From an uncultured virus (IMG/VR IMGVR_UViG_3300038828_000030) (lineage: Duplodnaviria; Heunggongvirae; Uroviricota; Caudoviricetes), in the IMG/VR virus record IMGVR_UViG_3300038828_000030: a DNA stretch of 64,000 nucleotides; one strand, 5' to 3'. This document shows positions 16,901 through 64,000 of the stretch, one piece after another. A program made the translations under genes and the position numbers. The first letter of the stretch is position 1; each line of letters starts with the position of its first letter. The notes beneath the pieces are model-generated. The model did no database searches. It had not been told where the DNA came from and worked only from the letters and a program-made list of their open reading frames with translations.

Positions 16901-19900
16901 AAGCTGGCTTAGCGTTGCTTCCTCGTACACCTCCAGCATTTCCGCGTACTTTTCGGGGTTTGCCGTCTTGAACGCCTGCGCCTGGGGCGACAGTGGGCTG
17001 TCCTGGTTCGGTGGTGGTGTCTGGGTTAGCATTTTGGGCGTCCTTGGTATCAGTATCTGCCTTTTTATCGGCATCGGCAATGGTGGTTGGCTCAGGCTCC
17101 ACCACGGCCTGCAACTCCTCCAGCGAATCAAACCCGGCCACTTCCTTCTTGGCCGTCACGCCCTTGTCCTTGTGGCGCCCGGCCACGGCGATGTATGCGC
17201 CCTGCAGGGTTTCAAAGGGGATGGCGTCGGCGGTTTCCTGGTCGATGCCCTGCGCAATGAAGTCGCGCACGTAGGCCACGGCCTTCTGGAACGTCACGGC
17301 GCCCAGCTCGATGGCGCCGTCGAACAACTCGATGACGATGGGCAGCAGTTTTTGTTCTTCCTCTGGCGTCCAGTTCATCCGCGTGTTCTTGGATGCCAGG
17401 GCGGCCAGCTTGCCCAGGGCGCCAAGCATCTTTGCCTTGGCGGCCTTCTCGCGCTCGGTCAGTGCGTCGGTCTTGGCGCGGGGCTGGTCGGCGCTGGGCT
17501 TCTTGGCGACCGGCTTTTGCGCAGATGTCTTTTGTTCTTTCGCCTGCGCCTGTTGAATGGCGTCATAGACCATCTTGCGCAATGACGGGAACACGTCAAA
17601 GGCATCCTGCATGTCGATGTTGCGCAGTTTTTTTGGCTGGCGGGCATCTATGCGGTTGTTGATGTCATGCGCCTGCTCGCGGTTCAGCCCGAACGCCTCC
17701 ATCAACAAGTTATCGCGCCCGCTTTTGCCAAGTGGGCTGCTCAGTAATACCTGAGCACGGTCGGTCATTCCATCTAGTTGATTCAGGCTGTACACGAAGT
17801 CTTTTAGATACTTCGCGGCTTCTTCCGGCGTCATGTCGGAAGAAGCACTTTCTGCGGCCTGCGAGGTGGCCGCTGGCTTCTTGTCGCCCACGACAACAAC
17901 CTCCAGCTTGCCGCTGTCTTGGGCTGCCTGCATCAGTGGGTTAGTGGATTGGGCTTCTGGAGCTTGACTGGCGGGGGCTACAGCCTCTTTTGATGCTGAA
18001 ACCGGCTCAAGGAAACCACCAAATCGCGGCTTGCCATCCTGAATCTGATAGATGGATCCATCCTTACGTTCATAAAGCTGGTTGCCATCCACATTCACGC
18101 CAATGTTCTTGTCATCGGCGGGTGTAATGGTTTCACGGGTAGCCTGCTTCGCCTTCAACTCCTGCGCATAGTCGTACTCAATTTTGGTTACTTCAAAGTC
18201 GCCAAGCCAGTAAACATCTTTTTTACCAGCTTCTTTGACCTTGCGGTCGTGTTCAGCTTGCTGGCGGTTGTCTGCGCGAAATATCTGCCTCCGAGACATC
18301 GGCTTGATCTTGTCCTCTTGGGTGATGGACGTTTTGAGGCCATCTGAAACCTTGTTTTCCACCCACTCGCGGCGAGTCATCACATTGCCAGTTTCCGAGT
18401 CGAGAACCTGCTTGGACAGCACCGCATCCTTGCGGTGCTCCATCAATGTCTTGGGGCGGTTCGCCGCCTTGCGGGCTTCCTCAGCATCCAGTCGTGCCTT
18501 GTCGGCCGCATCCTGCTCAGCCTTTGCGGCCTGCTGCTCTGCATCGCGCTTGGCTTCGCGCTCTGCCGCAGCCTGGGCTTGCTCCAGGGTGTCGTGCAGA
18601 GAATCGCCTCCGATGGCGCGCTCACCAGCCGCACGTCGGCGCCGGTTGTCGGGCGACTCCACCGCCCACATGGATTTCACCTCGTCGCCCACCTTGACCT
18701 TGGTGGGGTAGATGCGGGCGCCGTTGTAGGTGGTTTCTTGGGCTGGAGATGCCTCCTGCTGTGGCACTTCAAGCACATATCCCATGCGCCGATCTTCGCC
18801 AGGGTTGTAGCCGGCGAAAGTGTTGCGCTGGTCTGCCAATTCTGCTGGCGTTGCTTTGCGAACGACTGCCTTGCCAGCCAACTGCTTTGACCGGGCCATA
18901 GCGTCTGCCGTTGCCTTGTTCGGCACCACTATTGGCATTCCAGTCCGTGGGTCGGAGAACAGTGGCTTTTGGGTTTCTGCTACACCTTTTGTAGCTTTCT
19001 GCGCTTGACCGGCTGGCGTTTCGGGCTGATTTAGCCCTTGTTTTGTGGCGGGTTCAGTCGCGGATTCGGCCTTGTCCGCCTGCTCCTGCGCGTCCCGAAT
19101 CTGATCTACCAGTTTCTTGCGCTGCGTCTTGAGCGTGACTGGCACCTTGCGGCTTTTCATGGCCGCCTCGATGTCTCCGCCGCCCTTTGCCATGCTGGCT
19201 GGTGCGGCAGCAAGAATCTTGTCTTCAACCTCGCGCAACTGGCGGCGCAGATCGGCCACGGCTTGATCTTCAGTCAGCGCCGCTTTGACCGGCTCGGGCA
19301 GGTCGTTATGCGGGCTGGTGGCGGCTTCGTTGGCGGCTGCCGTGACGCTTTCTGCGGCTTGGGCTACCGGTTGCGTGCTGCGCAACTCGCCCACCAACAC
19401 ATCCAGCTTCTTGCCATCGGCTCCAACCACGCGCGCCATGTCCACCATGCCGAGGCCCGGTGCGGCTTGGCGGAACAACGCTTCAACCGTGCTGCGGCCG
19501 ATGGTGCGGCCATTCACGTCCACCGCGTCACCAACCTTGAACCCGTCCAACTCCCGCAAGGGCGCGCTGTTGATTGGGTCAGGCTTGCCGGTGAACAACG
19601 ATGACACCGGCTGCTCTGTTGTCGCACCATCCAGCCGGCCGGCATCACCTGTCTGCCGCTGTCCAGCACCGACAACAGGTGCCTCGCCTGCAACCGATTC
19701 GCCTGGCCCGTGCGGCGCAGCAGCGCCAGCGCCCGGTGTGCGCTCATCTGCCAGCCGTAGATTTCGTGCAGTTGCACCATGCTGTTCCCCCGTTTTCTTG
19801 ATCCTGCCAACAAACCCACCGCCCGCCTCAACCACCTCGTGACTGTCCTGCAAGCCCAGCCGGTTCACCTCGCGCTGCGCCGCCGCCTGACTGGCAAACG

Positions 19901-43241: not shown

Positions 43242-43319
43242 TGGTTGCGGCGGCCGGCTTCGCTCCGGCGGACCTCCAGGGTATGAACCTGGCGCTCTAC
43301 TTGACTGAGCTACGCCGCG
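43242..43319 (-). tRNA. tRNA with CAT anticodon, fMet-like, with non-canonical T- and D-loops
   Basis: CGCGGCG TA GCTC AGTCAAGTA GAGC G CCAGG TTCATAC CCTGG AGGTCC GCCGG AGCGAAG CCGGC CGCCGCA ACCA: all four stems pair, C1.A72 mismatch, encoded CCA. Confidence 0.8.
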
Positions 43320-43370: not shown

Positions 43371-43716
43371 TCAGCGCGAGCCCATCAGATTGGCCAGCAT
43401 CCGATCTTCGCGCGGCGTCAGCGTCAGGATGTCGTCGCCAATCTCCAACTTTACCGAGCCATCCGGGATCACTGTCTTGGACATCGGCCTCGCCGGCGGG
43501 TGCTTNNNNNNNNNNCACCGCCGGCACAAACACTCCACGCTCCACCCGGATGATGTCGCCCTCTCCCACCAGCACATCCAGTCGGTCGTCAATGGTCGTC
43601 AGCTTGAGCCCCGTCAGCTCGGCCAGCGCCGCGCGTGTGACGATCTGCTCCTGAGCGTGCAGGTCTTGCACCGCCTCCAGCACCAGCATCAGGGTCGATT
43701 TCTTTGGTTCAGTCAT
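43371..43716 (-). CDS. Winged-helix DNA-binding protein, candidate late activator (spans the N gap)
   Basis: VTRAALAELTGLKLTTIDDRLDVLVGEGDIIRVERGVF (wHTH) joins KHPPARPMSKT..LEIGDD across the Ns at 43506-43515; last gene before the late region. Confidence 0.65.
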
Positions 43717-52604: not shown

Positions 52605-52640
52605 ATTGTAGTCCCGAATCTGGGAAATGATCAATCCCGA
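52605..52640 (-). promoter_or_regulatory. PR-like promoter with operator and half operator
   Basis: Minus strand TTGATC-18nt-TACAAT-7nt-ATG; operator TCCCGAATCTGGGA 52612-52625; half site TCCCGA 52635-52640. Confidence 0.75.
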
Positions 52641-52666
52641 AAAATAACCATGCGCTCTTGTCGGAT

Positions 52667-52710
52667 TCCCGCATCTGGGATTGACTTCGTCCCGCATTTG
52701 GGACAACAAT
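52667..52710 (+). promoter_or_regulatory. PL-like promoter with two operators
   Basis: TTGACT-18nt-AACAAT; operators TCCCGCATCTGGGA 52667-52680 and TCCCGCATTTGGGA 52690-52703. Confidence 0.75.
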
Positions 52711-54800: not shown

Positions 54801-55129
54801 AAACCATCCACGCCCCCGAGATGCGCAGCACCACCGAGCGCTGCATCACCACCAGCACCGGCATCGCCATCGGACGATGCCACGTCCGCAAACCGCCGGC
54901 CCGTGTGGCCGGCAGTGTGAGCGGCCCGCACCGTCGCCCTGGCATCGCCGCCCGCGTGCTGGGCGTGATGGGCAGCATGCGCGCGCTGTTTGTCTGCATC
55001 GCCATCTGCGCGGCCGCGCTGCTCTTGAGCGCGTGCGGCCCGACAGACACCGAGGCGCTGCAGGACGTGGCGCTTGATCTGCAAGACGCGCAGGCTGCGG
55101 CCGTAGTCGCGGCGGCCAGCCGCAAGTGA
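54797..55129 (+). CDS. Hypothetical membrane/lipoprotein-like protein, 110 aa (start MKTIHAP)
   Basis: ATGA overlap; hydrophobic stretch ending LLLSACG. Confidence 0.5.
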   Translation: MKTIHAPEMRSTTERCITTSTGIAIGRCHVRKPPARVAGSVSGPHRRPGIAARVLGVMGSMRALFVCIAICAAALLLSACGPTDTEALQDVALDLQDAQAAAVVAAASRK

Positions 55130-55146
55130 TCAACCACGAGGAAACC

Positions 55147-56136
55147 ATGAACGCCATCACGAAACACGAGGGCCGCCTGCCTGCCCTGCAAATGGACGAA
55201 CAGGAGCTGATTCAGGTGCTGCAATCGAGCCTGTACCCGGGGGCATCACTGTCCAGCATCAAGATGGTGCTTGGATACTGCAGGGCGTCTGGGCTCGATC
55301 CGATGCGCAAGCCCGTCCACATCGTGCCCATGTGGGACAGCAAGGCCAAGCAAATGCGGGACGTGACGATGCCGGGGATAGGCCTGTATCGAACGGATGC
55401 AGCCCGCACTGGCGAGCACGTCGGCACGGATGATCCGGTGTTTGGACCCATGGTCGAGTACGAACTCAGCGGCTCAAAAGTCACGGTGCCGGAGTGGTGC
55501 AAGGTCACTGTCTATCGTCTCAAAAACGGCATGAAGTGCGCTTTCACAGCCACCGAATACTGGATCGAGAACTACGCCACGGCCGGCAAGGACAGCGCCG
55601 CGCCAAACACCATGTGGAAGAAACGCGGTCGCGGTCAATTGGCGAAATGCGCCGAGGCCCAGGCTCTGCGCAAGGCGTTTCCCGAAGTCGGCAGCCAGCC
55701 CACCGCCGATGAAATGGAGGGCAAGGTGCTGGACATGGGGCCGGCCGAAGTCGTGCCGCAATCGCCTGCGCACTACCCCGCCGCCGAGTTCGACAAGAAC
55801 TTGCCCGCCTGGCGCAGGGCCATCGAGGCCGGCAAGAAGGCCGCCGAAGACCTGATCGCCATGGTCGAAACCAAGGGCGCACTCACCGACGAACAGAAGG
55901 CCGCGCTGCGCGCCATCAAGCCGCCGCAGCCTGCCTCTGACGTGCAAGACGTGCAGCCCAAGGACGAAGCGCCAGCATTCACCTACGCCCAAGTGGCCGA
56001 CAAGCTGTCCGCCGCCACCGACGTGGAGCAATTGGCCGAAGCCGGCAGCCTGATCGGAGCCGTGTCCAACGCGGATCACCGCGCCGAACTCGTGACCCTG
56101 TACGAACAACGCAGCGCCGAAATGGAGGCCGCATGA
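55147..56136 (+). CDS. bet: ssDNA-annealing recombinase, Red-beta/Bet family
   Basis: YCRASGLDPM.KPVHIVP, GIGLYR..AARTG, MWKKR..GQLAKCAEAQALRKAFP; SD GAGG. Confidence 0.88.
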   Translation: MNAITKHEGRLPALQMDEQELIQVLQSSLYPGASLSSIKMVLGYCRASGLDPMRKPVHIVPMWDSKAKQMRDVTMPGIGLYRTDAARTGEHVGTDDPVFGPMVEYELSGSKVTVPEWCKVTVYRLKNGMKCAFTATEYWIENYATAGKDSAAPNTMWKKRGRGQLAKCAEAQALRKAFPEVGSQPTADEMEGKVLDMGPAEVVPQSPAHYPAAEFDKNLPAWRRAIEAGKKAAEDLIAMVETKGALTDEQKAALRAIKPPQPASDVQDVQPKDEAPAFTYAQVADKLSAATDVEQLAEAGSLIGAVSNADHRAELVTLYEQRSAEMEAA

Positions 56137-57923
56137 AGACCCTGACCCTGCAACAAGGATCGCCCGAATGGGCTGCTCACCGCGCTCGAAGCCTAAACGC
56201 CAGCGAGCTATCTGCGGCCATGGGCCTGTCCTCGTACATCACCAGGTCGGCCCTCGTCAAACAGAAGGCGACAGGCATCGCCCCAGAGATTGACGCGGCC
56301 ACTCAACACCGATTCAACAAGGGCCACGAGTTCGAGGCTATCGCGCGTCCATGGGCAGAGGAAATCATCGGGGAAGAACTTTTCCCTGTCGTACTGGCTG
56401 GCGAAGTTGATGCCCTGCCGCTGTCTGCGTCGCTTGATGGACAAACCTTGACGGGTGATGTGACGTGGGAACACAAGAGCGGCAACGCGACGCTTCTGGC
56501 CCGTTTGGATGCTGGCGTCATCCCTGACGAATATCACCCCCAGATGGAGCAGGGCCTGCTGCTGTCTGGTGCAACTCGGTGCCTATTCATGGCGTCCAGT
56601 GGAGACCGTGAAGCCATGCGCTATGCGTGGTACGAGTCAAATCCTGAGTTGCGAGCCAAGATTGTTCCGACCTGGAGGCAATTTCAAGCGGATGTTGCCG
56701 CCTACGTCCCCACCGAACCCGCCGCGCCCGTCATGGCCGCGCCCATCGAAAGCCTGCCCGCCGTCGTGGTGCAGGTGCAAGGCGCGCTGACCGTTGGCGG
56801 CAACCTGGACGCCTTCGGTCAGGCCCTGCGCTCGTTCATCGAGCGCATCCCCGCAAGACCGGCAACTGATATTGAGTTCGCAAACTGCGAAGCCGCCTGC
56901 AAGGCGCTGAAGAGGGCCGAGGACGCACTGACCCAGGCCGAAGACGGCGCGCTGGCGCAGATCAGCGACGTGGAGCTGATGCGCCGCACCGTGGCCGACC
57001 TCAAGGAGCTGGCACGGTCAACCCGCCTCGCGACTGAAAAGCTGGTCAAAGCCGAGAAAGACGCGCGCCGCACCGAGAAGGTCATGGCCGCGCGCCAAGC
57101 GTTTGAAACCCACGTCACGCGCCTGCAGATGGACATCAAAGGCGTGCGCCTGATCGTGCCCATGCCAGACTTCGGCGGCTCCATCAAGGGCCTGAGCAGC
57201 CTGGCAAGCATCGACGACAAGCTGACCGCCGCGCTGATCGCCGGCAAGGCCGAGGCCAACACCCTCGCCAGCCGGATCGCGGGCAACCTGCAAACGCTCG
57301 ACAGCGTGCCGCAGTACGCCCACCTGTTTGCTGACCGGCAGGAGCTGGCCTACAAGGACGCCGAGACGCTTGAGCTGCTGATGCAGAAGCGCGTCGATGC
57401 CGAGCGCGACCGCATCGAAGCCGAGCGCCAGCGTATCCAGCAGGACGAGGAACGCAAGGCCCGCGAAGCCGCCGAGCGCCAGGCCGAAGCGGAGCGCCAG
57501 CGCATCCGCGCCGAAGAGCAGCACAAGGCGCAGATGGAAGTCGCCGAAAAGCTGAAGGCTGAACAAGAGGCCGAGCGCCAAGCCAACGAAGACCGCCGCC
57601 GCATAGAAGCCCAGGCCGCAGAAGCCAAGAAGGCCGAAGCCGCCGCCCAGGCACAGCAGGCGATCCAGCAGGCCGAAGCGCCAGCCGCGCCAGCACCGGC
57701 GCCATGGGACGCCGACGAGGCGGCCACGCTCAAGTTGGGCGATGTGAACGCGCGCCTGGCGCCGATCCACGTCACCGCTGATGGCCTGCGCTCCATCGGC
57801 ATTGAGCCGGCCGGGCGCGAGAAGAACGCGACGCTGTACCGCGAAAGCCAGTTCGCGGAAATCTGCCAGGTGCTGGTGCTGCACCTGCAATCCGTCGTGC
57901 AGCCATCCGAGGCCACGGCATGA
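56133..57923 (+). CDS. YqaJ/lambda-exonuclease family protein with long coiled-coil, 596 aa
   Basis: QGSPEW..R..NASE, GHEFE..AR, SASLDG, WEHK, Q.EQGLL. Confidence 0.88.
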   Translation: MKTLTLQQGSPEWAAHRARSLNASELSAAMGLSSYITRSALVKQKATGIAPEIDAATQHRFNKGHEFEAIARPWAEEIIGEELFPVVLAGEVDALPLSASLDGQTLTGDVTWEHKSGNATLLARLDAGVIPDEYHPQMEQGLLLSGATRCLFMASSGDREAMRYAWYESNPELRAKIVPTWRQFQADVAAYVPTEPAAPVMAAPIESLPAVVVQVQGALTVGGNLDAFGQALRSFIERIPARPATDIEFANCEAACKALKRAEDALTQAEDGALAQISDVELMRRTVADLKELARSTRLATEKLVKAEKDARRTEKVMAARQAFETHVTRLQMDIKGVRLIVPMPDFGGSIKGLSSLASIDDKLTAALIAGKAEANTLASRIAGNLQTLDSVPQYAHLFADRQELAYKDAETLELLMQKRVDAERDRIEAERQRIQQDEERKAREAAERQAEAERQRIRAEEQHKAQMEVAEKLKAEQEAERQANEDRRRIEAQAAEAKKAEAAAQAQQAIQQAEAPAAPAPAPWDADEAATLKLGDVNARLAPIHVTADGLRSIGIEPAGREKNATLYRESQFAEICQVLVLHLQSVVQPSEATA

Positions 57924-58123
57924 GCAGCACCGTCGCCGACCTCTACGACGATGACCTGGATGCCTTCGAGAGCGACCTTGAGGACGCTCGCATGCAGGCT
58001 GAAAGTGACTGGGACGAGCAGTTCGTCGCCGACATGAAGGCGCGCTACGACCAGTACCAAGGCCGCATGTTCATCAGCCCCGCGCAGCACGAGCAACTGC
58101 TGCGCATTGGAGGAAACGAATGA
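57920..58123 (+). CDS. Hypothetical acidic protein, 67 aa
   Basis: ATGA overlap. Confidence 0.65.
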   Translation: MSSTVADLYDDDLDAFESDLEDARMQAESDWDEQFVADMKARYDQYQGRMFISPAQHEQLLRIGGNE

Positions 58124-58311
58124 ACGCCACCCTCTACGACCCCTCCGACGTGGCATTCGGCGCACAGCCGCGCCTGGTGTGCGCCGGCTGCGGCCAGATT
58201 GAAGTCGGCACCTACGAACCCGTCTGCCCCGAGTGCCGCAAGTCGCTGGAGCAGGCCGGAATCCTGAAACCAAAAAGCGAGCCGGCTCAGACCGGCCCGC
58301 TGGGTGAATGA
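58120..58311 (+). CDS. Small zinc-ribbon protein, 63 aa
   Basis: CAGCG..CPEC; SD GGAGG. Confidence 0.6.
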   Translation: MNATLYDPSDVAFGAQPRLVCAGCGQIEVGTYEPVCPECRKSLEQAGILKPKSEPAQTGPLGE

Positions 58312-58320
58312 AAGCACAGC

Positions 58321-58551
58321 ATGAAAAACACTGATCAATCGCGCCCGCCGTTCAAAATCAGCGGCGTCGCCACCATCAAGCACCTGAATGTCCGCAAGGA
58401 AGGCCCGGAGGACGAGAAGGTTCTGGCTGACGATGCTGCGCCCGAATGCACTTGTGCAGCGAAAGACATGACCTTTGGCCGATGCTGCAAGGTGACGCCC
58501 AACGCCCCGAGTTCAGCCGACGCGAAGCGGTCGGCTGGAATGAACTGTTAG
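58321..58551 (+). pseudogene. Chimeric/truncated ORF at the duplication junction
   Basis: N-part MKNTDQ..HLNVRKEGPEDEKVL is fused at 58426 to the same C-terminus as ORF 61187..61555. Confidence 0.5.
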
Positions 58552-58553
58552 AA
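58497..58553 (-). mobile_element. attC: Integron attC-like site a
   Basis: Minus strand TTCTAAC AGTTC ATTCCAGC CGACCGC TTC GCGTCG GCTGAAC TCGGGGC GTTGGGC. Confidence 0.8.
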
Positions 58554-58563
58554 GGCTGTATCC

Positions 58564-58800
58564 ATGAACAGACCAGAGCGAATTTACAACGTGAGCCAAA
58601 CGCAATTGAGCGTTGCTAGGTTTTACGGCGGCTGCAAATTCAACGGCGCGGATTATCACTACGACGCCGAAAGCGACACGCTGACACGCATGGACATTTG
58701 GCAAGCGCGATGCGCCAGCAGCAAGAAAGAAGCCGCGAAAGCAGCAAAGGCAGAGCGAGAAAAATGGATGAAGGCACAGCAGAGTTTTGCCGCCTTCTAA
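58564..58800 (+). CDS. Cassette gene B, hypothetical, 78 aa
   Basis: Starts 10 nt after core site GTTAGAA; stop TAA lies inside the complementary TTCTAAC. Confidence 0.75.
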   Translation: MNRPERIYNVSQTQLSVARFYGGCKFNGADYHYDAESDTLTRMDIWQARCASSKKEAAKAAKAEREKWMKAQQSFAAF

Positions 58801-58847
58801 CGCCGGAAATAAGCCGCCGCAGGTCGGCCTTGATTGACCTGTTATGC
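58795..58847 (-). mobile_element. attC: Integron attC-like site b
   Basis: Minus strand GCATAAC AGGTC AATCAAGG CCGACCTGCGGCG GCTTATT TCCGGC GTTAGAA. Confidence 0.82.
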
Positions 58848-58867
58848 AGAAACTTTAGGAATACCAA

Positions 58868-59119
58868 ATGGACACGATACAGCAAGAGCTTCGCAAGCCA
58901 GCGCACTATCTGAGCATGAGAAAGCGCGAGCAGGCTGCAAACTACATTGATAAGTTGCAAGCCGCCTTGAACCAGTACAGCGCAGACGAAGTGATGCTTA
59001 CGCACCAATCAACTATCGCAGCGCAGGCCGAGCAAATCGAAGCCTTGACGCAGGCGATAGTCGAGCGAGACGCGATCATTTCGCAGTACATCGCAGCACT
59101 TGGCTATGTTGCGGCATAA
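58868..59119 (+). CDS. Cassette gene A, coiled-coil hypothetical, 83 aa
   Basis: SD AGGA after core site GTTATGC; stop TAA lies inside the complementary GCATAAC. Confidence 0.7.
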   Translation: MDTIQQELRKPAHYLSMRKREQAANYIDKLQAALNQYSADEVMLTHQSTIAAQAEQIEALTQAIVERDAIISQYIAALGYVAA

Positions 59120-59165
59120 CCCGTGATTAGGCGACAAGCCCGCCCCGCGCCACGTCGCCTAATCA
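59114..59165 (-). mobile_element. attI-like site with 12-bp inverted repeat
   Basis: Minus strand GTC-GCCTAAT-CACGG-GTTATGC (L, 5 bp, R); inverted repeat TGATTAGGCGAC 59124-59135 / GTCGCCTAATCA 59154-59165. Confidence 0.55.
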
Positions 59166-59217
59166 GCCACTGGCGCAAGCAAACCCCAATAGGCAAACCT
59201 AAAAAACCGAGGACGTA

Positions 59218-59886
59218 ATGACCCCGCTTGTACGTGAAATGGCAGCCATCGTGCCGGAACCAGAAACCGCGCACTGGTTCGATCTGGGCACGATCCCCGG
59301 GCGCATCGAAGCCCAACGGGTGTATTGGGATGACATTCGCCACATGCCGTACCCGCGCACCATCGTGGTATTCATCACCGACAAAGGCAGCAAGGCCGCA
59401 TGCTGGATACAGGCATCGGAACATTCGCTGTCCATGGCCTACCTGATGGTCGATCCAGGCAAAGCGCCTCGCTTTTCCATCCCCATTGTCATCACCGAGG
59501 TGGATGGCGAGCTGCGCTATGAAGCCAAGGGCGGCGACGGCAAGGCCGCTGCGGGCGTGCTGTGTGCCATCGCCAAGCGCCTGCAAACCGCCAGTGCCGC
59601 CTACCGCCCCGAGTCGATTGGCACACCAGCGCAGCAGCGCAAGCGCGCGGCCAAAGGCAAGAGGCCACTGTTTGCATGGCACACCGTCACCATCGGCGCT
59701 ACGCCCAAAGTAGCCATTGCTACGTCAGATGTAGCTGGCACGCACGCCAGCCCACGCGCGCACGACAGGCGCGGGCACTGGCGCACCTACCCCAGCGGCA
59801 AACGCAGCTGGGTCAAGCACTGCCGCGTCGGCAATCCTGCGGACGGGGTGGTGTTCAAGGATTACCGGATCAGGAGCGAGAAATGA
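59218..59886 (+). CDS. Hypothetical phage protein, 222 aa
   Basis: SD GAGG; C-terminal SPRAHDRRGHWR..GKRSWVK..VG motif common in phage early proteins. Confidence 0.75.
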   Translation: MTPLVREMAAIVPEPETAHWFDLGTIPGRIEAQRVYWDDIRHMPYPRTIVVFITDKGSKAACWIQASEHSLSMAYLMVDPGKAPRFSIPIVITEVDGELRYEAKGGDGKAAAGVLCAIAKRLQTASAAYRPESIGTPAQQRKRAAKGKRPLFAWHTVTIGATPKVAIATSDVAGTHASPRAHDRRGHWRTYPSGKRSWVKHCRVGNPADGVVFKDYRIRSEK

Positions 59887-60155
59887 GCACATACACACCA
59901 CCCGACAAGATCGAGATTTACGCCGCCGCGCTGAAAAGCGACATCAACTCTGAGCGCTTCCAGGTTGTGGAGAGCGGCAGGCTCGAAACCTACTGGATCG
60001 GCACGGTATATGGCGGCGGCGTCGCAACCGAGCGCGGGCACAAATTTCGGACTGCAGAAGAGGCGTGGGACAACGCAAGCAAATTTGTGGAGCGCTGCGC
60101 GGAGATCGTCAGCGAGCGCGACCGCGCAGCCAAGGCAGGAGATCAGCATGGCTGA
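59883..60155 (+). CDS. Hypothetical protein, 90 aa (start MSTYTPP)
   Basis: SD AGGAG; ATGA overlap. Confidence 0.6.
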   Translation: MSTYTPPDKIEIYAAALKSDINSERFQVVESGRLETYWIGTVYGGGVATERGHKFRTAEEAWDNASKFVERCAEIVSERDRAAKAGDQHG

Positions 60156-60229
60156 AAGCACGGTCTGGCGCGTGATGCACCCAGACGGCTCGCGCACGGT
60201 GGTGGGCGGTGGTTGCTCGGAGAAAGACA

Positions 60230-60838
60230 ATGTCGCGTGCGCTTGATGTGGTGACGCTGACCGGCGAGGAATACGACGACCTCATGGAATGCAAAGAGAT
60301 GGTCGCCTCACTACTAGCCCAGTTGAGCGCCGCGAAAGACCGAATTGCCGAATTGACGCCAGTTGCTGGAATGGACTGGCGGGAAACGATGCAGCGCATG
60401 CTGACACGCATGGAGGAAACAGACCGCTGGCCTGCGATATGCGACGAGGCGCGGGCCGTCCTGTCGCTGGCGAATGATGCCACCAGGGAGCCTGCCGCCT
60501 ACCTGTGGGGCGGCTGCCTCTGGCGCACGGACGAAATGGGGCGCGGCAGACCTGGGGCAGTCGAACTGTATCGAGCGCAAACGCCGCTGACCGATGCCGA
60601 CATTACCGCATTGCTTCCGATATGGCAGCAGGGATCATGGACGCTGCCAGACTACGGCAGATGGGTAGCGCGGGCCGTCGAGCGGGCGCACGGGATCAAG
60701 ACATCGCACAACCTATGCCTATCCTGCGGGCACAGCATCGATGCCCACGACAAGCAATACGGCTGCGCAGAGGACGGGTGCGATTGCGAGACGCCCAACG
60801 ATCAGCATAACCGGCCCGCTTCAGCGGGTCCGGGTTGA
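60230..60838 (+). CDS. Mosaic hypothetical protein, 202 aa (start MSRALDV)
   Basis: SD GGAG; PLTDADI..RAVERAHGI module and Cys-rich tail; reads into attC-c. Confidence 0.65.
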   Translation: MSRALDVVTLTGEEYDDLMECKEMVASLLAQLSAAKDRIAELTPVAGMDWRETMQRMLTRMEETDRWPAICDEARAVLSLANDATREPAAYLWGGCLWRTDEMGRGRPGAVELYRAQTPLTDADITALLPIWQQGSWTLPDYGRWVARAVERAHGIKTSHNLCLSCGHSIDAHDKQYGCAEDGCDCETPNDQHNRPASAGPG

Positions 60839-60852
60839 TGCGCCAGTTGGGC
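60793..60852 (-). mobile_element. attC: Integron attC-like site c
   Basis: Minus strand GCCCAAC TGGCG CATCAACC CGGACCCGC TGAA GCGGGCC GGTTATG CTGATC GTTGGGC. Confidence 0.82.
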
Positions 60853-60866
60853 GCGGGAGGTGAGAG

Positions 60867-61190
60867 ATGGGGACATACGTTGTTTGGTGCCCGGACCTGG
60901 GCCAGGATCAGGAAGACGGTGCGACGATCCCGGCGACCGACCCCGCCGATGCGGCGGAAGGGTGGGCCGAATGGCACGACCGCAGCAGTGCCGAATACCG
61001 GATTGCCAGCGGGCGCGAGGAGATCGTGATCGTCCGCGACGTTGAGACAGGCGAGCAGCGCGAATGGATTGTGCGCGGCGAGGCGATGCCGTACTACACG
61101 GCGCAGCCTGGGGAGTCCGCGACGATCCGGGCGCAAGTGGCGCCGGGCCGATGGGAGGATGTTCCTAGACGTAGCGAGGCCAACGAATGA
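60867..61190 (+). CDS. Cassette C gene 1, hypothetical, 107 aa
   Basis: SD GGAGGT right after core site GTTGGGC. Confidence 0.7.
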   Translation: MGTYVVWCPDLGQDQEDGATIPATDPADAAEGWAEWHDRSSAEYRIASGREEIVIVRDVETGEQREWIVRGEAMPYYTAQPGESATIRAQVAPGRWEDVPRRSEANE

Positions 61191-61555
61191 AATGGCAGCC
61201 GATTGAAACCGCACCTACAGACGGCACCCGCATCCTGCTGCGCGGCAGGGGCGGCAAGATTGCGGATGGGCACTACGGACAGCCGGATGGGTGGGCAAAC
61301 CCGAAGCGTTTTGTCTGGCCGTACATCCATGCTAATCCGACGCACTGGGCTCCGCTCCCGTTGATTGCTGCTGCGCCGGAAAACAAGAAATTGCGTGCCG
61401 CCATCGCAAAAGCAACAGGACGTGTGGTCGCTGACGATGCTGCGCCCGAATGCACTTGTGCAGCGAAAGACATGACCTTTGGCCGATGCTGCAAGGTGAC
61501 GCCCAACGCCCCGAGTTCAGCCGACGCGAAGCGGTCGGCTGGAATGAACTGTTAG
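61187..61555 (+). CDS. Cassette C gene 2, DUF551-like, 122 aa
   Basis: WQPIETAP.DGT.ILL..PTHW.PLP; reads through attC-a'. Confidence 0.75.
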   Translation: MKWQPIETAPTDGTRILLRGRGGKIADGHYGQPDGWANPKRFVWPYIHANPTHWAPLPLIAAAPENKKLRAAIAKATGRVVADDAAPECTCAAKDMTFGRCCKVTPNAPSSADAKRSAGMNC

Positions 61556-61557
61556 AA
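61501..61557 (-). mobile_element. attC: attC-like site a' (copy of a)
   Basis: Identical to 58497-58553. Confidence 0.8.
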
Positions 61558-61567
61558 GGCTGTATCC

Positions 61568-61804
61568 ATGAACAGACCAGAGCGAATTTACAACGTGAGC
61601 CAAACGCAATTGAGCGTTGCTAGGTTTTACGGCGGCTGCAAATTCAACGGCGCGGATTATCACTACGACGCCGAAAGCGACACGCTGACACGCATGGACA
61701 TTTGGCAAGCGCGATGCGCCAGCAGCAAGAAAGAAGCCGCGAAAGCAGCAAAGGCAGAGCGAGAAAAATGGATGAAGGCACAGCAGAGTTTTGCCGCCTT
61801 CTAA
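61568..61804 (+). CDS. Cassette gene B, second copy
   Basis: Identical to 58564..58800. Confidence 0.7.
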   Translation: MNRPERIYNVSQTQLSVARFYGGCKFNGADYHYDAESDTLTRMDIWQARCASSKKEAAKAAKAEREKWMKAQQSFAAF

Positions 61805-61851
61805 CGCCGGAAATAAGCCGCCGCAGGTCGGCCTTGATTGACCTGTTATGC
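61799..61851 (-). mobile_element. attC: attC-like site b' (copy of b)
   Basis: Identical to 58795-58847. Confidence 0.8.
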
Positions 61852-61871
61852 AGAAACTTTAGGAATACCAA

Positions 61872-62123
61872 ATGGACACGATACAGCAAGAGCTTCGCAA
61901 GCCAGCGCACTATCTGAGCATGAGAAAGCGCGAGCAGGCTGCAAACTACATTGATAAGTTGCAAGCCGCCTTGAACCAGTACAGCGCAGACGAAGTGATG
62001 CTTACGCACCAATCAACTATCGCAGCGCAGGCCGAGCAAATCGAAGCCTTGACGCAGGCGATAGTCGAGCGAGACGCGATCATTTCGCAGTACATCGCAG
62101 CACTTGGCTATGTTGCGGCATAA
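61872..62123 (+). CDS. Cassette gene A, second copy
   Basis: Identical to 58868..59119. Confidence 0.68.
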   Translation: MDTIQQELRKPAHYLSMRKREQAANYIDKLQAALNQYSADEVMLTHQSTIAAQAEQIEALTQAIVERDAIISQYIAALGYVAA

Positions 62124-62169
62124 CCCGTGATTAGGCGACAAGCCCGCCCCGCGCCACGTCGCCTAATCA
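62118..62169 (-). mobile_element. attI-like site, second copy
   Basis: Identical to 59114-59165. Confidence 0.55.
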
Positions 62170-62221
62170 GCCACTGGCGCAAGCAAACCCCAATAGGCAA
62201 ACCTAAAAAACCGAGGACGTA

Positions 62222-62890
62222 ATGACCCCGCTTGTACGTGAAATGGCAGCCATCGTGCCGGAACCAGAAACCGCGCACTGGTTCGATCTGGGCACGATCC
62301 CCGGGCGCATCGAAGCCCAACGGGTGTATTGGGATGACATTCGCCACATGCCGTACCCGCGCACCATCGTGGTATTCATCACCGACAAAGGCAGCAAGGC
62401 CGCATGCTGGATACAGGCATCGGAACATTCGCTGTCCATGGCCTACCTGATGGTCGATCCAGGCAAAGCGCCTCGCTTTTCCATCCCCATTGTCATCACC
62501 GAGGTGGATGGCGAGCTGCGCTATGAAGCCAAGGGCGGCGACGGCAAGGCCGCTGCGGGCGTGCTGTGTGCCATCGCCAAGCGCCTGCAAACCGCCAGTG
62601 CCGCCTACCGCCCCGAGTCGATTGGCACACCAGCGCAGCAGCGCAAGCGCGCGGCCAAAGGCAAGAGGCCACTGTTTGCATGGCACACCGTCACCATCGG
62701 CGCTACGCCCAAAGTAGCCATTGCTACGTCAGATGTAGCTGGCACGCACGCCAGCCCACGCGCGCACGACAGGCGCGGGCACTGGCGCACCTACCCCAGC
62801 GGCAAACGCAGCTGGGTCAAGCACTGCCGCGTCGGCAATCCTGCGGACGGGGTGGTGTTCAAGGATTACCGGATCAGGAGCGAGAAATGA
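62222..62890 (+). CDS. Hypothetical 222-aa protein, second copy
   Basis: Identical to 59218..59886. Confidence 0.7.
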   Translation: MTPLVREMAAIVPEPETAHWFDLGTIPGRIEAQRVYWDDIRHMPYPRTIVVFITDKGSKAACWIQASEHSLSMAYLMVDPGKAPRFSIPIVITEVDGELRYEAKGGDGKAAAGVLCAIAKRLQTASAAYRPESIGTPAQQRKRAAKGKRPLFAWHTVTIGATPKVAIATSDVAGTHASPRAHDRRGHWRTYPSGKRSWVKHCRVGNPADGVVFKDYRIRSEK

Positions 62891-63159
62891 GCACATACAC
62901 ACCACCCGACAAGATCGAGATTTACGCCGCCGCGCTGAAAAGCGACATCAACTCTGAGCGCTTCCAGGTTGTGGAGAGCGGCAGGCTCGAAACCTACTGG
63001 ATCGGCACGGTATATGGCGGCGGCGTCGCAACCGAGCGCGGGCACAAATTTCGGACTGCAGAAGAGGCGTGGGACAACGCAAGCAAATTTGTGGAGCGCT
63101 GCGCGGAGATCGTCAGCGAGCGCGACCGCGCAGCCAAGGCAGGAGATCAGCATGGCTGA
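62887..63159 (+). CDS. Hypothetical 90-aa protein, second copy
   Basis: Identical to 59883..60155. Confidence 0.58.
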   Translation: MSTYTPPDKIEIYAAALKSDINSERFQVVESGRLETYWIGTVYGGGVATERGHKFRTAEEAWDNASKFVERCAEIVSERDRAAKAGDQHG

Positions 63160-63233
63160 AAGCACGGTCTGGCGCGTGATGCACCCAGACGGCTCGCGCA
63201 CGGTGGTGGGCGGTGGTTGCTCGGAGAAAGACA

Positions 63234-63842
63234 ATGTCGCGTGCGCTTGATGTGGTGACGCTGACCGGCGAGGAATACGACGACCTCATGGAATGCAAAG
63301 AGATGGTCGCCTCACTACTAGCCCAGTTGAGCGCCGCGAAAGACCGAATTGCCGAATTGACGCCAGTTGCTGGAATGGACTGGCGGGAAACGATGCAGCG
63401 CATGCTGACACGCATGGAGGAAACAGACCGCTGGCCTGCGATATGCGACGAGGCGCGGGCCGTCCTGTCGCTGGCGAATGATGCCACCAGGGAGCCTGCC
63501 GCCTACCTGTGGGGCGGCTGCCTCTGGCGCACGGACGAAATGGGGCGCGGCAGACCTGGGGCAGTCGAACTGTATCGAGCGCAAACGCCGCTGACCGATG
63601 CCGACATTACCGCATTGCTTCCGATATGGCAGCAGGGATCATGGACGCTGCCAGACTACGGCAGATGGGTAGCGCGGGCCGTCGAGCGGGCGCACGGGAT
63701 CAAGACATCGCACAACCTATGCCTATCCTGCGGGCACAGCATCGATGCCCACGACAAGCAATACGGCTGCGCAGAGGACGGGTGCGATTGCGAGACGCCC
63801 AACGATCAGCATAACCGGCCCGCTTCAGCGGGTCCGGGTTGA
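63234..63842 (+). CDS. Mosaic 202-aa protein, second copy
   Basis: Identical to 60230..60838. Confidence 0.62.
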   Translation: MSRALDVVTLTGEEYDDLMECKEMVASLLAQLSAAKDRIAELTPVAGMDWRETMQRMLTRMEETDRWPAICDEARAVLSLANDATREPAAYLWGGCLWRTDEMGRGRPGAVELYRAQTPLTDADITALLPIWQQGSWTLPDYGRWVARAVERAHGIKTSHNLCLSCGHSIDAHDKQYGCAEDGCDCETPNDQHNRPASAGPG

Positions 63843-63856
63843 TGCGCCAGTTGGGC
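63797..63856 (-). mobile_element. attC: attC-like site c' (copy of c)
   Basis: Identical to 60793-60852. Confidence 0.8.
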
Positions 63857-63870
63857 GCGGGAGGTGAGAG

Positions 63871-64000
63871 ATGGGGACATACGTTGTTTGGTGCCCGGAC
63901 CTGGGCCAGGATCAGGAAGACGGTGCGACGATCCCGGCGACCGACCCCGCCGATGCGGCGGAAGGGTGGGCCGAATGGCACGACCGCAGCAGTGCCGAAT
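63871..64000 (+). CDS. Cassette C gene 1, second copy (partial)
   Basis: Identical to the start of 60867..61190. Confidence 0.62.
   Translation, partial: MGTYVVWCPDLGQDQEDGATIPATDPADAAEGWAEWHDRSSAE

What the first reader, a model, noticed from the sequence alone, without database searches (positions are those of the whole stretch)
58497..61557. All attC sites point opposite to their genes (reverse-polarity cassettes)
Seen: the extrahelical bases and the spacer asymmetry make all three sites canonical only on the minus strand (e.g. AAT-C-AAG-G-CCG pairing with CGGCTTATT), while every cassette gene is on the plus strand. The genes are nevertheless fitted to the sites: an RBS just after plus-strand GTTRRRY, and TAA stops inside TTCTAAC and GCATAAC. 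Established: in bacterial integrons genes normally run toward their own attC, and strand polarity determines which strand folds and recombines. Inference: this is a phage-specific cassette class read from the phage PL-like promoter. Such genes would be antisense to Pc, and so silent, if captured by a host integron. The polarity may also tune excision relative to the phage replication direction.
Basis: partly seen in the sequence, partly recalled or inferred. Interest (0 to 1): 0.82.

Follow-up and report, generated by a model that had tools for sequence, protein, structure and literature searches.

The report
Backwards integron cassettes in a phage
A wastewater phage keeps several small early genes as integron-type swappable cassettes whose recombination hairpins (attC) face the opposite way to those of bacterial integrons, and many other phage contigs share this layout.

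Summary
Confirmed and extended. I built a covariance model from 17 attC sites that were oriented only by their neighbouring integron-integrase gene. It finds three attC sites per repeat unit in the window (58497-58553, 58795-58847, 60793-60852). All score 34-45 bits on the minus strand and 10 bits or less on the plus strand. Every gene there is on the plus strand.

Cassette borders sit exactly at the integrase crossover (plus strand NNNNAA|C). Cassette A (58503-58800) is near-identical in four different neighbourhoods and always travels with the attC upstream of its gene, so the gene is inverted inside its cassette. Cassettes B, C and D show the same borders.

The rule holds beyond the window. 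108 of 108 sites beside gene A relatives and 42 of 42 beside relatives of the 107-aa gene lie opposite to those genes. Coding-strand calls in related and independently chosen viral arrays were 61 opposite, 0 same and 31 unclear.

It is not universal: phage TJE1 has the canonical layout.

No integrase was found in the window, but two related arrays lie beside a true IntI gene.

The span also holds an exact 3004-bp tandem duplication, equal to cassettes A+B+C+D.

Phage attC clusters are published; I found no report of this inverted polarity. Other windows of this scan noted the same layout on other DNA.

The parts
55126..57923 (+). RecT-type annealing protein (55126-56136) and RecE/YqaJ-type exonuclease (56133-57923). 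These are the upstream genes of the same plus-strand early operon.
   Evidence: Pfam RecT 2.6e-22 and YqaJ 3.7e-5; phrog_2449 1e-94 and phrog_7655 5e-145.
58426..58502 (+). Last 77 bases of cassette D, fused to a backbone ORF (58321-58551). This is where the 3004-base identity begins.
   Evidence: Contigs of runs X7 and X14 cross 58425|58426.
58497..58553 (-). attC site 1. It belongs to cassette A. The crossover lies at 58502|58503.
   Evidence: R1 gives 40.0 bits (E 1e-7) on minus and 8.8 bits on plus. The border is mapped by four contexts.
58503..58800 (+). Cassette A (298 bp): attC site 1, an SD-like motif, and gene A (58564-58800, 78 aa). The TAA stop lies in the revcomp R' box of the next site.
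   Evidence: Near-identical in the window, L030, L031 and L032, with unrelated flanks on both sides (A5). 107 protein relatives. Codon score +17.8 on plus against -25.7 on minus.
58795..58847 (-). attC site 2. It belongs to cassette B. The crossover lies at 58800|58801.
   Evidence: R1 gives 44.6 bits (E 8e-9) on minus and no listed match on plus.
58801..59119 (+). Cassette B (319 bp): attC site 2 and gene B (58868-59119, 83 aa). The stop lies in GCATAA|C.
   Evidence: Identical in L149 from ..AA|CGCCGG to GCATAA|C, with different flanks (A6).
59114..59176 (.). Site 3: GCATAAC followed by a perfect 10-bp hairpin. It has no GTT partner box and no bulged bases. It marks the border of the C block.
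   Evidence: Not found by R1 at E<=10. Fold z -3.8. Four contexts diverge exactly left of TAA|C (A6). Contig ends at 59113-59117.
59120..60798 (+). C block (1679 bp): gene C (59218-59886, 222 aa), an ORF at 59883-60155, and an ORF at 60230-60838 that runs 40 bases into site 4. There are no attC sites inside.
   Evidence: There are internal contig break points that are not at attC sites.
60793..60852 (-). attC site 4. It belongs to cassette D. The crossover lies at 60798|60799.
   Evidence: R1 gives 34.4 bits (E 3e-6) on minus and 10.2 bits on plus. Four contexts share the site and differ left of AA|C (A7).
60799..61506 (+). Cassette D (708 bp): site 4, the 107-aa gene (60867-61190, phrog_21008), and a 122-aa ORF (61187-61555) that reads through GCCCAA|C into the next attC.
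   Evidence: The right border ..GCCCAA|C is followed by a different sequence in each of seven relatives (A8).
61430..64000 (+). Second, exact copy of 58426-60996, running off the window. It holds sites 1' (61501-61557), 2' (61799-61851) and 4' (63797-63856). The period of 3004 equals 298+319+1679+708, the lengths of cassettes A to D.
   Evidence: The joint 61429->58426 is present in a contig of run X4.

Best explanation
The span is an integrase-less cluster of integron-type gene cassettes (a CALIN). It sits in the early-left operon of a lambdoid-type phage, downstream of RecT/RecE.

Each cassette is one attC plus one or more small phage genes, but the genes lie on the attC bottom strand. In the direction of transcription each attC therefore precedes its gene and supplies sequence up to the SD-like motif. 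The gene ends at, or reads through, the crossover box of the next site (..TAA|C).

Shown here:
- The sites are attC sites with minus-strand polarity.
- The genes are on the plus strand.
- Cassettes A, B, C and D recur in different neighbourhoods, with borders exactly at the position where IntI cuts (G|TT on the minus strand).
- The layout recurs in many viral contigs.

Inferred:
- An integron integrase supplied in trans moves the cassettes. It could come from the host, from a co-infecting relative, or from a gene beyond the window's end. Related arrays L076 and L016 carry a true intI.
- Phage early transcription reads the cassettes.
- The inversion puts the recombining bottom strand on the sense strand, which is the lagging-strand template for a fork coming from the replication module. 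This would favour folding and exchange. It would also keep phage cassettes silent in host integrons, and host cassettes silent in phage arrays.
For: Canonical reference: in R100, the aadA1 attC has its bulged bases in the 5' arm of the coding strand.

Model R1 was built from 17 sites oriented only by intI. It called 92 of 92 control sites on the strand that intI predicts. In the window it finds three sites, each present twice, all on the minus strand.

Fold conservation: across 87 phage-array sites, 90.5% of cells pair and 17 of 22 pairs show compensatory changes. 294 cells changed on both sides, against 96.8+-7.3 in shuffles (0 of 500 shuffles reach it).

Borders and contexts:
- Cassette A in 4 contexts.
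- Cassette B in 2 and C in 4.
- Cassette D's left border in 4 contexts, and its right border with a different continuation in each of 7 relatives.
- Contigs of other runs end at 58501-58506, 58798 and 60797. One joins 58798 to 60797, skipping 1998 bases, which equals B+C.

Polarity elsewhere:
- 108 of 108 sites opposite gene A relatives.
- 42 of 42 opposite relatives of the 107-aa gene.
- Coding strand 38 opposite, 0 same, 22 unclear of 60 spacers.
- 23 opposite, 0 same, 9 unclear of 32 spacers in nine viral loci chosen by attC type alone.

IntI: L076 scores 411.7 bits and L016 370.7 bits, against a cut-off of 265. In L076 the intI lies next to the array with canonical intI/attC geometry and is co-directional with the inverted ORFs.
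Against: - No tyrosine recombinase was found in the window's ORFs that I scanned. None was found in 11 viral records, 3 of them at least 90% complete, nor within +-5 kb in 34 relatives. The mover is therefore not identified.
- Site 3 lacks a second box and fails the model, yet it is a border.
- Sites 1 and 2 fold no better than shuffled sequence.
- A cruder ORF-length/GC rule called 19 'same', 27 'opposite' and 15 unclear of 61 spacers in the gene A arrays.
- In the nine attC-type-selected loci, long frames ending in a box stop were 13 of 35 on the attC strand and 7 of 33 on the opposite strand.
- The codon model was trained on one phage. It had little power on the control arrays: 10 same, 1 opposite, 53 unclear of 64.
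- All contexts are metagenome contigs, where shared cassettes can mislead assemblers.
- No recombination, transcription or replication data exist.
Confidence: 0.8

Rival explanations
1. The polarity has no function. All these arrays descend from one founder array that happened to be inserted backwards, and attC x attC exchange can only add cassettes of the same build.
For: Within every locus all sites share one strand. The attC sequence types are related: window site 1 resembles sites of L076 and L134. Phage TJE1 works with canonical polarity.
Against: The layout occurs in phages with different replication and recombination modules: RecT/RecE in the window, and DNA polymerase/Sak4/Cas4 in L009. 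Cassette genes are fitted to the inverted frame: 40 of 76 long frames end at the TAA in the box, against 6 of 85 in control arrays.
Confidence: 0.3
2. The hairpins are only conserved linker sequences. The phage's own RecT/RecE shuffles genes at them by short-homology recombination, and no integron integrase is involved.
For: The array lies directly downstream of an annealing-protein/exonuclease pair in the window and in L009. No integrase was found in the window or in 11 viral records. The C block has break points away from attC sites.
Against: Junctions fall at one nucleotide position (AA|C), between attC sites that share only the 3-7 base box. That is too short for annealing-based exchange and is the position IntI cuts. 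Bulged bases and spacer asymmetry are conserved. True IntI genes adjoin two related arrays.
Confidence: 0.1
3. The cassettes are ordinary: the real genes are on the minus strand and the plus-strand ORFs are shadows.
For: In GC-rich DNA both strands are often open. The crude rule gave 19 'same strand' calls of 61.
Against: Gene A has 107 relatives of conserved length, with third-position changes in the plus frame. Codon scores are positive on plus and negative on minus for all seven ORFs of the span. The plus-strand ORFs hit PHROG families. Cassette A carries the attC upstream of the plus-strand gene.
Confidence: 0.02
4. Chance hairpins or terminators, or a bacterial integron that merely abuts a prophage or was mis-joined to it.
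For: Sites 1 and 2 have weak folding z-scores. The record's origin is unknown and no whole genome is held.
Against: E-values of 8e-9 to 3e-6, with no other hit below E 2.7 in 64 kb. Phage genes flank the array on both sides (phrog_7521, phrog_21008). The same arrays lie inside viral records judged complete, one with terminal repeats. No T-run terminators are present.
Confidence: 0.03

Closest known systems
CALINs (clusters of attC sites lacking an integron integrase) in phage genomes: Qi et al. 2023, PMC9892861 (outline, section 3.4 and found passages read; supplements not read)
   Same: attC sites in a row in a phage, with no integrase nearby. In that study five of six tested sites were recombined by IntI1. 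Orphan methyltransferases are among the cargo there, and also here in L088.
   Different: That paper reports 17 CALINs in 10,705 phages and calls the arrays typical in structure. I found no remark there on gene strand against attC strand. Its phage TJE1 is canonical by my model. Here every cassette is inverted, and the cassettes are shared by many wastewater viral contigs.
Canonical integron cassettes (class 1 mobile integrons, e.g. aadA1 of R100, and sedentary chromosomal integrons)
   Same: The attC architecture: boxes, 5/6-base spacers and bulged bases. The crossover at G|TT. One attC per cassette. Tight packing of the ORF, with a stop inside a box.
   Different: The ORF lies on the bottom strand, so the attC is 5' of its gene. 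There is no intI, attI or Pc in the window. Expression must come from the far end of the array.
Inverted cassettes within chromosomal integrons (toxin-antitoxin cassettes with their own promoter). Richard et al. 2024, PMC13108822: passages on own promoters and on strand effects seen. That such cassettes are often inverted is recalled, not seen.
   Same: A gene that is antisense to the attC top strand inside a true cassette.
   Different: In chromosomal integrons these are a minority among canonical cassettes and bring their own promoters. Here whole arrays are inverted, and only 10-70 bases separate the attC from the start codon.
Integrons with an inverted integrase gene (Cury et al. 2016, PMC4889954, passage seen)
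   Same: A departure from the standard relative orientation of integron parts. In L076 intI and the cassette genes are co-directional.
   Different: [quoted passage not shown] In L076 the intI/attC geometry is standard and only the ORFs are turned.

Membership tests
integron attC recombination site | Scores with a covariance model of attC sites on one strand only | tested here: met
   Sites 1, 2 and 4 score 40.0, 44.6 and 34.4 bits on minus and 10.2 bits or less on plus. The model is my own (R1), not IntegronFinder's. Site 3 is not met.
integron attC recombination site | Terminal boxes RYYYAAC / GTTRRRY that pair through AAC/GTT | tested here: met
   On the minus strand: TTCTAAC..GTTGGGC, GCATAAC..GTTAGAA and GCCCAAC..GTTGGGC. 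AAC/GTT is invariant in 85 of 85 related sites. Site 3 has only one box.
integron attC recombination site | Bulged (extrahelical) bases and a 5/6-base spacer asymmetry that mark the bottom strand | tested here: met
   The placement is the same as in the R100 aadA1 attC and in the intI-anchored sites, but on the minus strand.
integron attC recombination site | Recombined by an integron integrase as a folded bottom strand | not testable with these tools
   Indirect evidence only: the borders lie at the cut position.
integron gene cassette | A discrete unit with one attC, bounded by G|TT crossovers and found in different neighbourhoods | tested here: met
   Cassette A in 4 contexts, B in 2, C in 4. 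Cassette D has 4 contexts at its left border and a different continuation in each of 7 relatives at its right border.
integron gene cassette | ORF co-oriented with the attC top strand and read from Pc | tested here: not met
   All ORFs of the span are on the opposite strand. Related arrays give 61 opposite, 0 same and 31 unclear of 92 spacers.
complete integron | intI with attI and Pc next to the array | tested here: not met
   No tyrosine recombinase was found among the window ORFs scanned. The window ends inside the array, so a gene beyond 64000 is not excluded. L076 and L016 do have intI.
CALIN | Two or more attC sites on one strand within 4 kb, with no intI nearby (definition from Cury et al. 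2016, passages seen) | tested here: met
   Six hits on the minus strand between 58497 and 63856.

The most novel reading that the evidence does not exclude
Phages run an integron system of their own. Its cassette pool is built back-to-front so that the genes are read by early phage transcription running toward a co-directional intI, as in L076. The inversion places the recombining strand on the sense, lagging-template strand, which makes phage arrays hot spots of exchange during replication. It also acts as an expression barrier: host cassettes are silent in phages, and phage accessory (probably anti-defence) genes are silent in host integrons.
Probability: 0.4. Interest if true: 0.9.

Novelty: new variant of a known kind. 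Interest (0 to 1): 0.8.

Why it matters
Integrons are regarded as a bacterial device whose cassettes face one way so that Pc can read them. Whole arrays of inverted cassettes, carrying phage genes and shared among many phages, would be a second, separate pool of mobile genes that uses the same recombination chemistry.

This gives a site-specific mechanism for the mosaic small-gene regions of phage early operons. It points to where new phage accessory and anti-defence genes could be harvested. It also makes the role of strand polarity in attC folding testable in a replicon other than a chromosome.

For annotation, cassette finders that assume gene-then-attC will pair these genes with the wrong site.

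Tried and rejected
- Folding energy as a test: sites 1 and 2 are no better than shuffles, so it was dropped in favour of a covariance model.
- Rfam has no attC family. The only hit in the window is a tRNA.
- Megablast of 57900-61600 against the 'phages' collection: no match.
- Exact-match searches of viral contigs for site 2 and for a stretch of the 122-aa gene: none found. The sequence beyond the window's end was therefore not obtained.
- No whole genome is held for the window. Metagenome records behind L032, L054, L076 and L087 are not held either.
- The ORF-length plus GC3/GC1 rule for the coding strand was unreliable in GC-rich 250-bp cassettes. I replaced it with a codon model.
- The codon model has little power on the lower-GC control arrays.
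- R1 misses some attC types: no hit in 6 of 23 control sources, for example the AT-rich 81-84-nt sites of L137 seen.
- Gene A function: no Pfam or PHROG family. The model is good (pLDDT 86.9) but Foldseek against the PDB gave nothing at E<=0.001.
- The promoter scan gave 2 sites where 2.1 are expected by chance.
- RNA libraries hold the stretch only as contigs, so neither strand nor expression can be read from them.
- The idea that the 3004-base repeat is a wrap-around of a circular record was rejected: the window's head is unique.
Full report
**What the window is.** The window is a GC-rich phage of lambdoid layout. The minus strand carries a replication initiator, primase/helicase, NinB, NinG, terminase subunits, portal, major head and tail genes, and a 4821-aa polyvalent protein. 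From about 53.9 kb the genes turn to the plus strand: a hexapeptide transferase, a RecT-type annealing protein (55126-56136), a RecE/YqaJ-type exonuclease (56133-57923), and then many small ORFs. The finding lies in this early-left operon. No whole genome is held for the window.

**A canonical yardstick.** To avoid relying on memory for what 'canonical' means, I took two kinds of reference.
- Plasmid R100: on the coding strand of aadA1 its attC reads GTCTAAC-5 nt-GTT[C]AAGCCG[A]CGCCGC..GCGGCGCGGCTTAAC-6 nt-GTTAGAT. The two extra bases sit in the 5' arm.
- Integron integrase genes found with TIGR02249: 119 of 301 genomes of one class had a match over the family cut-off. That count includes three unpublished genomes, from which I took no sequence. 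I fetched 20 intI-adjacent stretches, and a strand-symmetric script listed hairpins bounded by ..AAC/GTT...

Seventeen short sites, oriented only by the position of intI, gave alignment A4 and covariance model R1.

On 23 control sources R1 gave 102 matches at E<=0.01. These are 92 distinct sites, 17 of them seeds. All 92 score best on the strand that intI predicts. The 10 mirror matches are at least 33 bits lower. Six of the 23 sources had no hit, so R1 does not see every attC type.

**The sites in the window.** With filters off, R1 gives 13 matches at E<=10. Six are significant and all six are on the minus strand:

| Site | Bits | E-value |
|---|---|---|
| 58795-58847 | 44.6 | 8e-9 |
| 58497-58553 | 40.0 | 1e-7 |
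| 60793-60852 | 34.4 | 3e-6 |

Each has an exact copy 3004 bases downstream. On the plus strand the same places reach 8.8 and 10.2 bits, or nothing. The printed alignments place the bulged bases and the 5/6-base spacers as in the controls. The hairpin at 59114-59176 is not found, and it has no GTT partner box. Single-strand folding energies are unremarkable for sites 1 and 2 (z -0.7 to -1.4) and better for the other two.

**The genes are on the plus strand.** Gene A (58564-58800) has 107 protein relatives of the same length. Its DNA alignment shows third-position changes in the plus frame. A codon log-odds model trained on 14 genes elsewhere in the window called the strand of all 16 held-out ORFs correctly. 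All seven ORFs of the span score positive on plus and negative on minus, or have no qualifying open frame on minus. TAA at 58798-58800 lies in TTCTAAC, TAA at 59117-59119 lies in GCATAAC, and SD-like motifs follow the plus-strand GTT boxes.

**The units move, and which attC goes with which gene.**
- Gene A is 100% identical in the window, L030, L031 and L032. In alignment A5 the identity runs from the C of NNNNAA|C, at the far end of the attC upstream of gene A, to TTCTAA|C at its stop. Left of the first point and right of the second, the four sequences are unrelated, and the downstream attC differs in all four.
- So cassette A is 58503-58800. It carries the attC that precedes the gene, and its borders are where IntI cuts (G|TT on the minus strand).
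- Cassette B (58801-59119) recurs in L149 with other flanks. The C block (from 59120) recurs in L150, L151 and L152, each with a different sequence left of TAA|C.
- Cassette D (60799-61506) shares site 4 with L161, L164 and L166, which differ left of AA|C. Its right end ..GCCCAA|C is followed by a different sequence in each of seven relatives.

**Evidence from sequencing runs.** Twenty runs from 13 studies hold the stretch. They come from activated sludge, wastewater, freshwater and biofilm, and three of the runs may be the source. Laying Logan contigs from four runs gave the following:
- Contig ends fall at 58501-58506, 58798, 60797 and 59113-59117.
- One contig in an RNA library joins 58798 to 60797 and skips 1998 bases, which is exactly B plus C. 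Only 26 bases lie on its shorter side, so this is weak.
- Contigs cannot show strand or expression.

**The duplication.** 58426-60996 equals 61430-64000 without a mismatch. The period of 3004 is the sum of the four cassettes (298+319+1679+708). The identity starts 77 bases left of cassette A because the left flank carries the last 77 bases of D, fused to a backbone ORF. A contig of run X4 holds the joint 61429->58426. In run X1 the unit's depth is 24.2 against 14.6 for the flank. An unequal exchange would give this product, either between the two copies of the D end or between the attC sites that follow them. I cannot tell which. Sites 1', 2' and 4' are therefore copies, not independent evidence.

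**How general the polarity is.**
- In 100 loci oriented with a gene A relative on plus, R1 gave 117 matches. 108 are on minus and 9 are weaker mirrors of minus hits. Hits fell in 36 loci, and none fell in the 19 bacterial-genome loci.
- After I dropped 19 matches from loci that duplicate others, the codon model called 38 of 60 spacers as sense opposite to attC, 0 as same and 22 as unclear. Without the gene A cassettes the counts are 30, 0 and 17.
- Nine viral loci picked only by an attC-type pattern held 41 sites, all on one strand within each locus. Of their 32 spacers, 23 were called opposite, 0 same and 9 unclear.
- In 34 viral loci with a 93-97% identical relative of the 107-aa gene, 42 of 42 matches are on minus. 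They fall in 12 loci; the other 22 loci have the gene without any attC within 5 kb.

Results that pull the other way:
- A cruder rule gave 19 same, 27 opposite and 15 unclear of 61 spacers.
- In the nine pattern-picked loci, long frames ending in a box stop were 13 of 35 on the attC strand and 7 of 33 opposite. In the gene A arrays the same counts were 21 of 79 and 40 of 76. In control arrays they were 30 of 82 and 6 of 85.
- On the control arrays the codon model was mostly undecided: 10 same, 1 opposite, 53 unclear.

Other points:
- Phage TJE1, a published CALIN, has its three sites on the gene strand, so the inversion is not a property of all phages.
- The 87 best phage-array sites keep the fold by compensation: 90.5% of cells pair, 17 of 22 pairs change on both sides, and no shuffle of 500 reaches the observed value. 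That alignment was fitted to the model.

**Context and cargo.** L009 lies in a 62-kb viral record judged complete. Its array follows DNA polymerase, a Sak4-type annealing protein, SSB, a Cas4-type exonuclease and a resolvase, all on the gene strand. L010's array flanks a helicase and a methyltransferase. Of 23 cassette ORFs from related arrays, 7 hit PHROG families at E<=0.001, including a DNA methyltransferase. Gene A itself has no family and no structural match.

**The integrase.** None was found among the window ORFs scanned, in 11 viral records, or within 5 kb in 34 relatives. The window ends inside the array, so a gene further on is not excluded.

tblastn with 20 control IntI proteins against 124 loci found L076, L016 and a weak generic hit in L109. 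The L076 and L016 proteins pass the curated integron-integrase cut-off (411.7 and 370.7 bits against 265). In L076, intI (from 4194, plus strand) lies directly after the array. The attC top strands read away from it, as in any integron, but the cassette ORFs run toward it. One of L076's attC sites closely resembles window site 1. A viral contig, L153, encodes a 64% identical IntI preceded by co-directional small genes and one weak minus-strand site.

**Why backwards? (inference only).** Richard et al. 2024 state that bottom strands on the lagging-strand template fold and excise more, and that the Vibrio array keeps them on the leading-strand template (passages). Here the replication genes lie at 47-50 kb and the cumulative GC skew turns at 52-53 kb. 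A fork leaving that region would therefore use the plus strand as lagging template, and the plus strand is the attC bottom strand. An inverted cassette is the only build that is both co-directional with the fork and 'hot'. The geometry also makes phage cassettes antisense to Pc in a host integron, and host cassettes antisense in the phage. A founder effect with no function remains a serious rival.

**Literature.** Five searches found phage CALINs (Qi et al. 2023) but no report of inverted polarity in phage arrays. Of that paper I read section 3.4 and found passages, not the supplements. Notes of this scan describe the same layout in at least 16 other windows. They are unchecked AI notes and are not counted as evidence here. 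One of them prompted the integrase search.

Noticed in passing
window 7965-22430 (-): A 4821-aa ORF with LPD39, ART-PolyVal (ADP-ribosyltransferase), Eco57I-type methylase and a weak SNF2 match. This looks like a 'polyvalent' protein of the kind phages carry.
   Followed up: no
window 58426-64000: An exact tandem duplication of 3004 bases that runs off the window. Its period equals the four cassettes A-D. The repeat joint is present in a contig of another run.
   Followed up: partly
L076 2404-5195: A metagenome contig with a true integron integrase directly downstream of, and co-directional with, five inverted cassettes. GTCTAAC and GCATAAC motifs lie in the last 60 bases before the intI start and may be the attI crossover.
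   Followed up: partly
L155 and L159, about 4940-4995: Relatives without a model-detected attC have a different GC-rich hairpin (CCTAAC..CCCCCGCAGC..GCTGCAGCGGGG..ATTAAC) in front of the 107-aa gene. It could be a decayed site or another element.
   Followed up: no
window 57390-57660: Imperfect direct repeats with spacings of 69-99 bases inside the C-terminal half of the RecE-like gene. They encode a charged AEAERQR-type repeat.
   Followed up: no
window 43245-43319 (-), 1508-1517, 43506-43515: One tRNA gene inside the phage (49.8 bits) and two runs of 10 N.
   Followed up: no
window, place not determined: Repeated 25-mers at offsets of 54, 90, 180, 234 and 288 bases (multiples of 18) point to a tandem repeat somewhere in the window.
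   Followed up: no
proteins P0045, P0059, P0071, P0077: One source names some gene A relatives 'outer membrane protein W'. This does not fit a 78-aa soluble-looking protein and looks like a carried-over misannotation.
   Followed up: no
window 52605-52710: A back-to-back pair of sigma-70-like matches in the gap between the minus and plus gene blocks. This is the expected place for divergent early promoters, but the count is no more than chance gives.
   Followed up: no
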